The notes under the pieces were generated by a model. The model had not been told where the DNA came from. It ran no database searches and worked only from the letters and a program-made list of their open reading frames with translations. 64,000 bases of DNA from NCBI GenBank assembly GCA_017608505.1, contig JAFCFT010000003.1, forward strand, positions 234-64,233. The letters run 5' to 3'. The first letter of the stretch is position 1. The number at the start of each line of letters is the position of its first letter. This document shows positions 56,059 through 56,782 of the stretch, piece after piece. The position numbers and the translations under genes were made by a program. Source of the DNA: Candidatus Parvarchaeota archaeon. GTDB lineage: Archaea > Nanobdellota > Nanobdellia > WJKC01.

Positions 56059-56231
56059 GCGGGGGTGCCGGAGCCTGGTCAAACGGGCTGGACTAAGGAT
56101 CCAGTGGCTTAGTGCCTGCGCGCGTTCAAAACGCAGGCGGGGGAGGGGTGCCCTCCCCCATCCTAGCGCGTTACCTCCCCCCACCCGGCGAGGTGCGTGT
56201 TGGACTGCGAGTGAAAATCGCGTCCCCCGCA
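56059..56231 (+). tRNA. tRNA-Leu (type II, anticodon reads AAG) with an 87-nt GC-rich T-loop intron
   Basis: Acceptor GCGGGGG/CCCCCGC, 3-bp D stem CCG/CGG, anticodon stem CTGGA/TCCAG, loop CT-AAG-GA (56095-56097). Long variable arm TGGCTTAGTGCCTGC. T stem GCGCG/CGCGT is split after TTCAAA by about 56131-56217, which contains GGGGGAGGG/CCCTCCCCC and CGCAG/CTGCG helices. Mature length 86 nt. Confidence 0.7.
56214..56231. repeat. Direct repeat, left copy = 3' exon of tRNA-Leu plus 4 intron nt
   Basis: AAAATCGCGTCCCCCGCA, identical to 56765-56782. Confidence 0.85.
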
Positions 56232-56288
56232 TCATTTTTTCCCATACATCAAAACATTTATAAGTGCTGTAAACATATTTGTTTACAC

Positions 56289-56507
56289 ATGGTTCAAGTT
56301 CAGTTACGCATGCCTGATGAATTAGTGGCGCAGATTGATGAATGGGTTAAAAAAGGCATGTTTAAGAGCAGGAGTGACGCAATAAAAACCATTATTGCCA
56401 TTTATGAGGAGCGTATGAAGACGCGCGAATTCTATAAAATGCTGCTAAAAAGAAGTAGAGAGGCAGAAGATAAACCTGAAATACTGGTGCCAATAGATGA
56501 AATATAA
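56289..56507 (+). CDS. Ribbon-helix-helix (CopG-like) antitoxin
   Basis: MVQVQLRMPDELVAQIDEWVKKGMFKSRSDAIKTII. ATG at 56289; the track start 56112 lies in the tRNA intron. Confidence 0.75.
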   Translation: MVQVQLRMPDELVAQIDEWVKKGMFKSRSDAIKTIIAIYEERMKTREFYKMLLKRSREAEDKPEILVPIDEI

Positions 56508-56766
56508 AGTTTTTTTGCATCCTAAAGCGGGAGCATTCTTAAGAACCATTGATAAGAAGTTAAAAGAAAGAATAAAAAAGCGAATTAAACTACTTGAAGA
56601 TAATGCTGAATTAATTGGCAAGCCATTGAGGTATTCAAGTTTTTGGAGCCTAAGGATAGGAGATTACAAAGTGATTTATGAAATAAATAAAAATGAAGAA
56701 AAAATAATAATCCTATTCATAGGGCATAGAAAGAAAGCATACTCTGACTTCACTAAATTATTTTAA
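56497..56766 (+). CDS. relE: RelE/ParE-family toxin
   Basis: MKYKVFLHPKA...WSLRIGDYKVIYEI...IGHRKKAY. Overlaps the antitoxin by 11 nt. Confidence 0.8.
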   Translation: MKYKVFLHPKAGAFLRTIDKKLKERIKKRIKLLEDNAELIGKPLRYSSFWSLRIGDYKVIYEINKNEEKIIILFIGHRKKAYSDFTKLF

Positions 56767-56782
56767 AATCGCGTCCCCCGCA
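56765..56782. repeat. Direct repeat, right copy of the tRNA-Leu 3' end
   Basis: AAAATCGCGTCCCCCGCA. Overlaps the RelE stop codon. Confidence 0.85.

What the first reader, a model, noticed from the sequence alone, without database searches (positions are those of the whole stretch)
56214..56782. Stand-alone RHH-RelE cassette bounded by an 18-nt duplication of the tRNA-Leu 3' exon
AAAATCGCGTCCCCCGCA occurs at 56214-56231, covering the last 4 intron nt plus the 3' T-stem, acceptor and discriminator of tRNA-Leu. It occurs again at 56765-56782, overlapping the RelE stop. The roughly 550 bp in between encode only a CopG-type antitoxin and a RelE toxin. This looks like a minimal toxin-antitoxin module inserted by site-specific recombination into the tRNA 3' end. 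The duplicated core includes intron nucleotides, so the target was the intron-containing gene. A TA pair behaving as its own tRNA-targeting mini-island, without any recombinase, is unusual.
Basis: seen in the sequence. Interest (0 to 1): 0.65.

Follow-up and report, generated by a model that had tools for sequence, protein, structure and literature searches.

The report
Toxin-antitoxin islet inserted at tRNA-Leu
A 551-bp toxin-antitoxin gene pair in a DPANN archaeon is a real insertion next to a leucine tRNA gene, bounded by a copy of the tRNA's tail; it is best read as a stripped-down or non-autonomous integrated mobile element, a known kind of thing in an unusually small form.

Summary
AAAATCGCGTCCCCCGCA occurs exactly twice in the window (56214-56231 and 56765-56782; 0.02 matches expected by chance). 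The first copy is the 3' end of an intron-containing tRNA-Leu. The 533 bp between the copies hold only an RHH antitoxin and a RelE/ParE toxin with their own archaeal promoter and operator.

Comparison with relatives supports insertion:
- The window is from a DPANN (Woesearchaeota/Nanoarchaeota-like) archaeon.
- The orthologous locus (PHP gene, then tRNA-Leu) carries a different one-gene cassette with its own degenerate tRNA-tail repeat in L035. It is almost empty in L140.
- The same toxin-antitoxin (TA) cassette follows another tRNA-Leu in L011. Its repeat matches that tRNA's own T-stem, although synonymous sites between the two cassettes are saturated.
- Relatives of this TA pair sit in the same tRNA / TA / tRNA-tail-copy layout at tRNA-Ser and tRNA-Gln.

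No recombinase, terminal inverted repeats or attC site is present.

Best reading: tyrosine-integrase-type integration at the T-loop/3' end, now an integrase-less islet (CIME-like). It is either a decayed remnant held by TA addiction or a cassette moved in trans.

The claim that the target was the intron-containing gene is not supported. Only one repeat nucleotide distinguishes the two cases, and L011 and L035/L140 suggest the intron arrived with or after the insertion. That idea was already proposed for Caldiarchaeum (PMC3293823).

The parts
56059..56130 (+). tRNA-Leu exon 1 (positions 1-59; anticodon loop CTAAGGA = AAG; variable arm AGTGGCTTAGTGCC; T-stem 5' half GCGCG; T-loop TTCAAA)
   Evidence: In-silico spliced gene is called tRNA-Leu(AAG), 86 nt, by ARAGORN. 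The same variable-arm string is found in 44 DPANN tRNA-Leu loci.
56131..56217 (+). 87-nt GC-rich intron in the T-loop (between positions 59 and 60), relaxed bulge-helix-bulge
   Evidence: Central helix TTCA/TGAA with 3-nt bulges AA|A and AA|T. The same geometry is seen in five other T-loop introns of related loci. The inner helix CGCAG/CTGCG is offset by 2 nt (read).
56218..56231 (+). tRNA-Leu exon 2 (T60, T-stem 3' half CGCGT, acceptor CCCCCGC, discriminator A)
56214..56231 (+). Left direct repeat (attL-like): last 4 intron nt plus exon 2
56232..56249 (+). 18-nt spacer with a T-run (TCATTTTTTCCCATACAT), absent from the L011 copy of the cassette
   Evidence: Alignment.
56257..56263 (+). TATA-box-like TTTATAA about 29 nt upstream of the antitoxin ATG (leaderless-type archaeal promoter; inferred)
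   Evidence: Block CAAAACATTTATAA is conserved with L011 although synonymous sites are saturated.
56269..56286 (.). Palindrome GTAAACA-TATT-TGTTTAC, putative operator of the RHH antitoxin
   Evidence: 100% conserved in L011 and nearly identical in the L065/L082 cassettes. Function is inferred from RHH autoregulation in type II TA systems.
56289..56507 (+). RHH (CopG-type) antitoxin, 72 aa
   Evidence: Pfam RHH_1, E 2.4e-5. dN/dS 0.10 against L011.
56497..56766 (+). RelE/ParE-superfamily toxin, 89 aa, overlapping the antitoxin by 11 nt
   Evidence: Pfam ParE_toxin, E 1.6e-11. PDB relatives are 2khe, RelE 9g12 and Rv2866. All family-invariant residues are present, including H77, R78 and Y82. pN 0.13 against pS 0.79.
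56765..56782 (+). Right direct repeat (attR-like), overlapping the toxin stop codon; the next gene starts 3 nt later

Best explanation
The RHH-RelE pair is the whole surviving content of a small integrated genetic element. It entered the tRNA-Leu(AAG) gene of a DPANN archaeon by tyrosine-integrase-type site-specific recombination in the T-loop/3'-end sublocation. Such recombination restores the tRNA on one side. On the other side it leaves a displaced copy of the tRNA tail (T-loop end, T-stem 3' half, acceptor strand, discriminator), which is the 18-nt repeat. The element now has both att copies but no recombinase, so it is non-autonomous (CIME-like). It is either what is left after the rest of a larger element was deleted, with the TA pair kept because losing it kills the cell, or a cassette that relies on an integrase supplied in trans. 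The TA module itself is functional: it has its own promoter and operator, overlapping ORFs and strong purifying selection. Shown: the repeat, the gene content, absence from orthologous sites, recurrence with locally matching repeats, and lack of a recombinase in the cassette and the tested window ORFs. Inferred: the recombinase type, the crossover position and the addiction-based retention.
For: (1) The repeat is exact and far beyond chance.
(2) Its extent, from the T-loop to the discriminator, is what T-loop-sublocation integrases leave. The same extent recurs at L016 (from A57), L042 (from position 49), L082 and L065.
(3) Orthologous locus: L035 shares the hexapeptide gene (50% aa), the PHP gene (73% aa) and tRNA-Leu(AAG). 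Instead of the TA pair it carries a 452-nt cassette with one nucleoside-deoxyribosyltransferase-like gene, followed by CTCGTCCCCTGCA, a 1-mismatch copy of its own tRNA tail. L140 is about 97% identical to L035 in the flanks and has only 35 nt plus the remnant CCCTGCA.
(4) L011 has the same cassette (79% and 73% aa identity, same promoter and operator) directly after a tRNA-Leu with a different T-stem (AAGGG/CCCTT). Its right-hand copy, TCCCTCCCTCCGCA, follows that T-stem and not the window's CGCGT.
(5) Synonymous sites between the two cassettes are saturated (pS 0.58 and 0.79). A neutral relic of one ancestral insertion could therefore not still be 18/18 and 12/14 identical to the local tRNA tails. 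This points to separate, comparatively recent events or to att sites kept by selection.
(6) Relatives of this TA family lie in the same tRNA / TA / tRNA-tail-copy layout at tRNA-Ser (L065, L082) and tRNA-Gln (L130, 44-nt exact repeat). In L065 and L082, about 88% homology runs from the promoter to the last base of the att copy and stops there, with unrelated flanks.
(7) 14 of 85 loci of the family have a tRNA 3' end within 700 nt. L012 has the TA about 5 kb from a Phage_integrase gene.
(8) TA function: Pfam hits, invariant residues and dN/dS about 0.1.
Against: No integrase was found in the cassette, by motif over all window ORFs of 110 aa or more, or in the 16 window ORFs scanned with Pfam (6, 10). 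The window is only 64 kb of the genome, so the catalyst is unidentified. Among 44 related tRNA-Leu loci, only one ORF within 4 kb downstream looks like a tyrosine recombinase (L025, Xer-like), so integrase-bearing elements at this tRNA were not demonstrated. No perfectly empty site of the window's own species was recovered, and no circular or excised form. The window also carries about 3 kb (flavoprotein plus Mo-oxidoreductase) that L035 and L140 lack and that is not bounded by a repeat, so not all variability at this site is att-mediated. In L065 and L082 the DNA between the tRNA and the TA promoter is non-homologous. That fits decay of larger elements better than a self-contained mini-cassette, so the two sub-scenarios cannot be separated for the window.
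Confidence: 0.75

Rival explanations
1. Active miniature cassette. The mobile unit is small (about 0.55-0.65 kb) and is repeatedly excised and integrated by a recombinase supplied in trans, rather like an integron cassette. It brings its own T-loop intron plus 3' exon, so the currently used exon 2 and intron are element-derived and the right-hand copy is the host's original, intronless tRNA tail.
For: There appear to be two separate, recent insertions of the same TA-only unit (WIN 18/18, L011 12/14 over the tRNA tail despite saturated dS). The L011 right-hand copy reads TTCAAT-CCCTC, resembling an intronless T-loop. L035 (intron plus cassette) and L140 (neither) are about 97% identical in the flanks. 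L139 is 99.7% identical to the window up to the first intron base and then unrelated. A T-loop intron and a downstream tail copy co-occur in 3 of 6 loci against 2 of 37 (Fisher p = 0.014). A different one-gene cassette sits at the same site in L035. There is a precedent model for Caldiarchaeum (PMC3293823).
Against: No trans recombinase or circular form was seen. L031 and L038 have T-loop introns with no cassette. In L065 and L082 the segment between tRNA and promoter is unrelated, which a shared mini-circle would not predict. With dS saturated, the shared left boundary of WIN and L011 may only reflect promoter conservation. The counts are small and the loci are not independent.
Confidence: 0.3
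2. Ancient, vertically inherited TA next to a leftover of a partial tandem duplication of the tRNA gene. The second copy would be kept because it serves something else, for example a signal for the gene that starts 3 nt downstream or a 3'-end signal for the TA transcript.
For: The next ORF starts 3 nt after the copy. PHP-tRNA-Leu synteny is conserved in the clade. Tandem 70- and 78-bp duplications of the tRNA-Leu tail occur in L016 and L042.
Against: The orthologous loci L035 and L140 lack the TA. The copy tracks the local T-stem in two genomes. The same layout occurs at tRNA-Ser and tRNA-Gln with unrelated flanks. The downstream gene differs between WIN and L011.
Confidence: 0.07
3. Transposon- or casposon-like insertion that produced a target-site duplication of the tRNA 3' end.
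For: Casposons are known to insert at tRNA 3' ends with 14-15-bp duplications (own knowledge; mentioned in PMC6563490).
Against: No terminal inverted repeats at the cassette ends. The right end is the toxin stop codon itself. Repeat lengths across instances range from about 11 to 44 nt or more, not a fixed length. No transposase or Cas1.
Confidence: 0.02
4. Chance repeat or generic GC-rich motif.
For: None beyond the GC-rich composition of the 18-mer.
Against: 0.02 matches expected in the window even at 3 mismatches. Only two chance hits in 2.9 million viral contigs, both inside high-GC coding sequence. The architecture was found independently in L011.
Confidence: 0.01

Closest known systems
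tRNA-targeting integrative elements / genomic islands made by tyrosine integrases (Islander concept, PMC4383910; archaeal SSV- and pNOB8-type elements, PMC8371274)
   Same: An intact tRNA at one end and a displaced 3' fragment of the same tRNA as a direct repeat at the other. Identity runs from the T-loop to the 3' end. The site is variable between relatives.
   Different: No integrase gene, whole or split. Total size is 551 bp with two genes. The smallest archaeal integrated element in the Thaumarchaeota survey is 2.6 kb and has an integrase (PMC6563490).
CIME, cis-mobilizable elements of streptococci (PMC5704250)
   Same: [quoted passage not shown] Often lies next to a tRNA gene at an integration hot spot. 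Tandem accretion is seen in relatives (L130 has three att copies; L016 and L042 have tandem units).
   Different: Described in bacteria as decay products of ICEs and IMEs. Here the host is a DPANN archaeon, the parent element is unknown, and mobilisation in cis is untested.
Intron gain through integration of a mobile element whose attP carries an intron (Sugahara et al. 2012, Caldiarchaeum tRNA-Thr; PMC3293823)
   Same: Strain-level polymorphism in which an extra tRNA intron and an inserted segment flanked by tRNA-derived repeats go together (L035 against L140; WIN against L139).
   Different: There the insert is 1.8 kb with a recombinase gene, the repeat is the tRNA 5' part and the intron is at 24/25. 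Here the repeat is the 3' part, the intron is at 59/60, there is no recombinase, and the cargo is a TA pair.
Type II RelBE/ParDE toxin-antitoxin modules (RHH antitoxin plus RelE/ParE-fold toxin)
   Same: Antitoxin-first overlapping small ORFs, Pfam RHH_1 and ParE_toxin, a palindromic operator between TATA box and start codon, and a conserved C-terminal GHRK..Y motif.
   Different: Nothing unusual in the module itself. Toxin activity and target are untested.
Integron gene cassettes carrying TA pairs (e.g. Vibrio superintegrons; own knowledge) and archaeal integrons
   Same: A promoter-bearing one- or two-gene unit with a recombination site immediately after the stop codon and no recombinase of its own. 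Different cassettes occupy one platform in different strains.
   Different: No attC-type imperfect palindrome and no IntI/attI platform. The recombination sequence is a tRNA tail.

Membership tests
Type II RelBE/ParDE toxin-antitoxin | Two small adjacent or overlapping ORFs with the antitoxin upstream | tested here: met
   56289-56507 and 56497-56766, 11-nt overlap.
Type II RelBE/ParDE toxin-antitoxin | Antitoxin with an RHH DNA-binding fold; toxin of the RelE/ParE superfamily | tested here: met
   Pfam RHH_1 24.5 bits (cutoff 20.5); ParE_toxin 45 bits (cutoff 23). PDB hits 2khe, 9g12 (RelE) and 3g5o.
Type II RelBE/ParDE toxin-antitoxin | Both genes kept under purifying selection with family-invariant residues present | tested here: met
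   dN/dS 0.10 (RHH); pN 0.13 against pS 0.79 (RelE). Invariant columns include H77, R78 and Y82 of the window protein.
Type II RelBE/ParDE toxin-antitoxin | Toxin inhibits growth and is neutralised by the antitoxin | not testable with these tools
   Needs an expression experiment.
tRNA-targeting integrative element (tyrosine integrase type) | Restored tRNA at one end and a displaced tRNA 3' fragment as direct repeat at the other | tested here: met
tRNA-targeting integrative element (tyrosine integrase type) | Element absent from the orthologous site in relatives | tested here: met
   L140 is near-empty and L035 holds a different cassette. No empty site was found in the same species.
tRNA-targeting integrative element (tyrosine integrase type) | Integrase gene inside the element (next to the tRNA, or split across the att sites) | tested here: not met
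   Only the RHH and RelE genes lie between the repeats. No integrase was found among the window ORFs tested.
tRNA-targeting integrative element (tyrosine integrase type) | Excision to a circular form and an attB site | not testable with these tools
   Needs reads or PCR from the source sample.
CIME (cis-mobilizable element) | Retains attL and attR | tested here: met
   18/18 repeat.
CIME (cis-mobilizable element) | Lacks integration and transfer genes | tested here: met
CIME (cis-mobilizable element) | Derived by decay of an autonomous element and mobilisable after accretion with an incoming one | tested here: inconclusive
   For decay: unrelated DNA between tRNA and TA promoter in L065 and L082, and an integrase about 5 kb from the TA in L012. 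Against a slow decay: perfect repeat and no junk in the window. Mobilisation is untestable here.
Integron gene cassette | attC imperfect inverted repeat at the 3' end of the cassette | tested here: not met
   No terminal inverted repeat; the right end is the stop codon plus the tRNA tail.
Casposon / DNA transposon | Terminal inverted repeats and a fixed-length target-site duplication | tested here: not met
   Repeat lengths range from about 11 to 44 nt or more across instances.
Archaeal bulge-helix-bulge tRNA intron (non-canonical position) | 4-bp central helix flanked by two 3-nt bulges on opposite strands, with the cuts restoring a 7-nt T-loop | tested here: met
   TTCA/TGAA with bulges AA|A and AA|T. 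Six of six T-loop introns in the clade fit. The spliced product is a standard tRNA-Leu.
Archaeal bulge-helix-bulge tRNA intron (non-canonical position) | Flanking helices stacked on both sides (strict hBHBh') | tested here: inconclusive
   The inner helix CGCAG/CTGCG is separated from the central helix by 2 extra nt, which is a relaxed motif. DPANN-type endonucleases with broad specificity are known (PMC3239211, PMC5829648). Splicing itself was not observed.

The most novel reading that the evidence does not exclude
At the tRNA-Leu(AAG) gene of these DPANN archaea, small recombinase-less gene cassettes (a TA pair here, a deoxyribosyltransferase-like gene in L035) are exchanged by a trans-acting recombinase. 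Each incoming cassette carries its own T-loop intron plus 3' exon. Cassette integration would then be what creates the intron-containing tRNA gene, and the displaced right-hand repeat would be the original intronless tail. This would be an integron-like cassette platform built on a tRNA gene, and a direct, repeatable source of non-canonical tRNA introns.
Probability: 0.25. Interest if true: 0.65.

Novelty: new variant of a known kind. Interest (0 to 1): 0.45.

Why it matters
Integration of mobile DNA into tRNA genes and its decay to att-flanked remnants are well known. The mobile elements of DPANN archaea, however, are poorly charted, and an att-bounded unit of 551 bp holding only an addiction module is close to the smallest possible genomic island.

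The comparative data show three things. tRNA-Leu(AAG) is a strain-variable hot spot in this clade. TA pairs of one family repeatedly end up as the only cargo next to tRNA genes in several archaeal lineages. A T-loop intron tends to accompany the insertion.

The last point gives new, independent material for the still thinly supported idea that archaeal non-canonical tRNA introns are delivered, or selected for, by integrating elements. It makes that idea testable with population metagenomes of these organisms.

Tried and rejected
- Exact look-ups of the toxin and of the downstream flavoprotein found nothing.
- Homologues of the flavoprotein (52% identity or less) lie in unrelated, metal-resistance-type neighbourhoods, so they were useless for finding an empty site.
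- A 17-mer scan of viral contigs gave two chance hits in high-GC coding DNA.
- The TA family has one relative in viral contigs, with no tRNA and no integrase nearby. It has none in the curated plasmid or phage collections.
- None of the 44 related tRNA-Leu loci (L015-L058) carries the TA; among the loci searched by tblastn, only L011, found separately, does.
- A motif and Pfam screen of window ORFs found no recombinase. Among ORFs downstream of the 44 tRNA-Leu genes, only a Xer-like protein in L025 turned up.
- No terminal inverted repeats or attC-like structure.
- I considered that the 3' part of the intron (GCGAGTGAAAAT) is a degenerate copy of the T-arm. I dropped this because the bulge-helix-bulge constraint alone explains most of the similarity.
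- I first counted the shared left boundary of the WIN and L011 cassettes as evidence for a mini-element. I then discounted it: with synonymous sites saturated, only functional sequence would remain alignable.
- No second att copy was found at the far end of the extra 3 kb (56786-59745).
- P0122 could not be read because its sample file is too large.
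Full report
**Observation.** The 18-mer AAAATCGCGTCCCCCGCA is present exactly twice in the window, at 56214-56231 and 56765-56782. There are no further matches even with three mismatches allowed. Dinucleotide-preserving shuffles expect 0.02 matches (also family D3).

**The tRNA.** ARAGORN and Rfam do not report a tRNA at this position in the raw sequence. Removing 56131-56217 gives an 86-nt gene that ARAGORN calls tRNA-Leu(AAG), with a normal cloverleaf and long variable arm. 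The intron lies in the T-loop between positions 59 and 60. T-stem GCGCG/CGCGT continues into a 4-bp helix, TTCA/TGAA, flanked by the 3-nt bulges AA|A and AA|T. Five other T-loop introns in related loci (L011, L035, L031, L038, L020) have the same geometry.

The inner helix CGCAG/CTGCG is offset by two bases, so the motif is a relaxed bulge-helix-bulge. DPANN and crenarchaeal endonucleases that accept such substrates are described (PMC3239211, PMC5829648). With these splice sites the left repeat is four intron bases plus the 14-nt exon 2.

**The cassette.** Between the repeats are 533 bp. Pfam identifies an RHH_1 antitoxin (56289-56507) and a ParE_toxin/RelE-superfamily toxin (56497-56766). The nearest solved structures are a 'toxin-like protein' (2khe), a RelE (9g12) and Rv2866. 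The two ORFs overlap by 11 nt.

Upstream lie a TATA-like TTTATAA (56257-56263) and a perfect palindrome, GTAAACA-TATT-TGTTTAC (56269-56286). Both are conserved in the L011 copy. The palindrome recurs almost unchanged in the more distant L065 and L082 cassettes, which is the pattern expected of an operator for the RHH repressor.

Against L011 the antitoxin has dN/dS 0.10. The toxin has pN 0.13 against a saturated pS of 0.79. The window toxin carries all family-invariant residues. The module is therefore intact and under selection. The toxin stop codon overlaps the right repeat, and the next gene starts 3 nt after it.

**Organism and neighbourhood.** A scan of one genome per prokaryotic species with the tRNA's variable-arm string returned 44 loci. 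Nearly all are from Woesearchaeota, Nanoarchaeota or Pacearchaeota genome bins. The window's other genes are housekeeping archaeal genes: thermosome-like, topoisomerase VI, RFC and RIO kinase. The window is thus chromosomal DNA of a DPANN archaeon.

**The orthologous site in relatives.** L035 is from a 727-kb contig. It has the same hexapeptide-transferase gene (50% aa) and PHP gene (73% aa) in front of a tRNA-Leu with the same anticodon loop type and a 50-nt T-loop intron.

Downstream of that tRNA, L035 has no TA. It has a 452-nt segment with one gene, weakly similar to nucleoside 2-deoxyribosyltransferases. That segment is followed by CTCGTCCCCTGCA, a one-mismatch copy of that tRNA's own tail.

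L140 is about 97% identical to L035 in the flanking genes but differs in three ways. Its tRNA-Leu has no intron. One T-stem pair is swapped. Only 35 nt plus the remnant CCCTGCA separate the tRNA from the shared downstream ORFs.

Those downstream ORFs correspond to window 59746-60030(-) and 60067-60441(+). Compared with these relatives, the window carries the TA cassette and, beyond the right repeat, about 3 kb more (a flavoprotein and a molybdopterin oxidoreductase). No further repeat bounds that extra DNA. L144 confirms that PHP-tRNA-Leu synteny is conserved.

**The same cassette elsewhere.** L011 is a 1.2-kb contig that starts inside a tRNA-Leu with the identical variable arm. It carries the homologous cassette (79% and 73% aa identity) immediately after that tRNA, which also has a T-loop intron.

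Its T-stem is AAGGG/CCCTT rather than GCGCG/CGCGT. The sequence after its toxin is TCCCTCCCTCCGCA, a two-mismatch copy of its own tail TCCCTTCCCCCGCA. The right-hand copy therefore follows the local tRNA at the two T-stem positions that distinguish the two genomes. Alignment between WIN and L011 ends at the right repeat, and the flanks beyond it are unrelated.

Synonymous sites between the cassettes are saturated. A neutral 18-mer inherited from a single ancestral insertion would have about a 1e-7 chance or less of remaining intact. So either the two insertions are separate and comparatively recent, or the att copies are maintained by selection.

**Family-wide survey.** A metagenome scan with an alignment of the toxin family returned 80 loci. 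Fourteen of the 85 loci examined have a tRNA 3' end within 700 nt of the toxin. That is roughly three times what tRNA density would give by my rough estimate.

Three loci repeat the full layout:
- L065: tRNA-Ser, then TA, then a partial tail copy.
- L082: the same layout at tRNA-Ser.
- L130: tRNA-Gln, a 44-nt exact repeat and a third copy 3.3 kb away.

L065 and L082 are about 88% identical from just upstream of the TA promoter to the last base of the att copy, and unrelated beyond it. That marks a true element end in two different contexts. However, the 100-130 nt between the tRNA and the promoter are not homologous, and their att copies resemble each other (CTATTCCCCGGCGC) more than the local T-stems. 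This looks like a TA-plus-att-arm module shared by related larger elements whose other parts were lost. In L012 a member of the family lies about 5 kb from a Phage_integrase gene.

**The intron claim.** The mature T-loop is TTCAAAT, so an intronless gene would read ...TTCAAATCGCGTCCCCCGCA. Seventeen of the 18 repeat bases are common to both forms. Only the first A is specific to the intron-containing form, and A is the most frequent base on this strand.

The bulge-helix-bulge motif itself requires ...TGAA-AA|T. That motif resembles the T-loop's 3' part. In L011 the right-hand copy is preceded by TTCAAT, which is an intronless T-loop minus one A. It is not preceded by the intron's ...GAGTA. If the window's ancestor had the L011 arrangement TTTTAG-TTATTCAAAT-CGCG, deleting GTTATTC gives exactly TTTTAAAATCGCG. 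This is my inference.

Other observations point the same way:
- L035 (intron plus cassette) against L140 (neither).
- L139 is 99.7% identical to the window through PHP and exon 1 and unrelated from the second intron base on.
- A T-loop intron and a downstream tail copy co-occur in 3 of 6 loci against 2 of 37 (p = 0.014; small and non-independent sample).

Together these suggest that the intron belongs to the inserted block or arose after it. Sugahara et al. proposed exactly this for a Caldiarchaeum tRNA-Thr: an attP carrying an intron recombines with an intronless attB (PMC3293823). T-loop introns without cassettes also exist (L031, L038), so the link is not obligatory.

**Recombinase.** There is none in the cassette. 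A motif screen of all window ORFs of 110 aa or more (61 after removing overlaps) flagged only one 1030-aa protein (23251-26343), which I take to be an aminoacyl-tRNA synthetase. Neither the six ORFs flanking the cassette nor ten further window ORFs of plausible integrase size scanned with Pfam include a recombinase. There are no terminal inverted repeats or attC-like palindromes. The rest of the genome could not be examined.

**Mechanism.** Several features fit tyrosine-integrase recombination at a tRNA T-loop/3' end:
- the extent of the repeat (T-loop to discriminator);
- its variable length across instances (about 11 to 44 nt or more);
- tandem tail copies in L016, L042 and L130;
- element-specific arms next to the core in L065 and L082.

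These features do not fit transposition or chance. The present unit is non-autonomous, which matches the definition of a CIME: att sites kept, integration genes lost (PMC5704250).

Two histories remain open. In the first, a larger element decayed and the TA was retained because loss of the antitoxin is lethal. L065, L082 and L012 support this. In the second, a miniature cassette is moved in trans. The recent, junk-free, TA-only state reached independently in WIN and L011, and the different single-gene cassette in L035, support this. I put about 0.75 on integrase-type insertion now lacking its recombinase. Within that, I put roughly 0.3 on the active mini-cassette version.

**Novelty.** The ingredients are all known: tRNA-targeted integration, decayed att-flanked remnants, TA modules on mobile DNA, non-canonical archaeal introns, and the intron-delivery model. 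What is unusual is the extreme reduction (551 bp, addiction module only) and its recurrence in several archaeal lineages. Also unusual are the DPANN host and the new comparative support for a link between integration and T-loop introns. I class it as a new variant of a known kind, of moderate interest.

**Limits.** All relatives are metagenome contigs, and several break inside the repeated tRNA-Leu variable arm. No same-species empty site or circular form was seen. The genome-wide and metagenome-wide scans and contig look-ups were exhausted before L139 and L035 could be extended.

Noticed in passing
window 56092-56098 (anticodon loop); also L016, L020, L022, L025, L035, L042, L054, L140, L144: This tRNA-Leu and at least nine relatives in DPANN bins have the anticodon loop (C/T)TAAG(G/A)N, i.e. 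anticodon AAG with A at the wobble position. GAG, TAG, TAA, CAA and CAG isoacceptors occur in the same clade. A34 tRNAs are not expected in archaea (own knowledge). All five loci with downstream tail copies have this isoacceptor, except L011, where the anticodon is cut off.
   Followed up: partly
L139 995-1260 against window 56132 onward: A contig from another sample is 99.7% identical to the window across the PHP gene and tRNA exon 1. It becomes unrelated exactly at the intron start. It has 125 nt of GC-rich sequence with a similar hairpin and no exon 2 in the remaining 270 nt. Its left end also departs from the window. It may be a different intron or element, or a split tRNA half.
   Followed up: partly
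L016 4784-4944; L042 (reverse strand) about 885-1065 in tRNA orientation: Tandem 70-bp and 78-bp units, each a 53-nt spacer plus a copy of the tRNA-Leu tail. This gives three tail copies in a row directly after the tRNA, with no gene between them.
   Followed up: partly
window 56786-59718: The flavin-dependent dehydrogenase-like gene and the molybdopterin oxidoreductase right after the cassette are absent from the orthologous loci L035 and L140. The flavoprotein's closest homologues (52% or less) sit in copper/metal-resistance neighbourhoods of unrelated contigs. This is probably further acquired DNA, but no repeat bounds it.
   Followed up: partly
L035 (reverse strand) 578-1029: The cassette at the orthologous tRNA-Leu site encodes a single 128-aa protein weakly similar to nucleoside 2-deoxyribosyltransferases (Pfam E 3.9e-5, below the curated cutoff). 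This fold is also used by some defence effectors.
   Followed up: no
L011, L018, L024, L041, L044, L144 contig ends: Contigs from several assemblies start or stop inside the 17-nt string AGTGGCTTAGTGCCTGC, which all tRNA-Leu isoacceptors of these archaea share. This repeat evidently breaks assemblies and hides what lies next to these tRNAs.
   Followed up: no
window 56131-56217: The intron is about 70% G+C in a 33% G+C genome. It contains GCGGGGG (identical to the acceptor 5' strand), an internal direct repeat (CCTCCCCCATCCTAGCG / CCTCCCCCCACCCGGCG) and a 9-bp perfect hairpin.
   Followed up: no
L144 1266-1352: The orthologous tRNA-Leu in another relative has an additional insertion in the D-arm region (GGTCAATCAATGGATCAACGTGGTCCGGCGGACCAAACG). 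Intron number and position therefore vary between close lineages.
   Followed up: no
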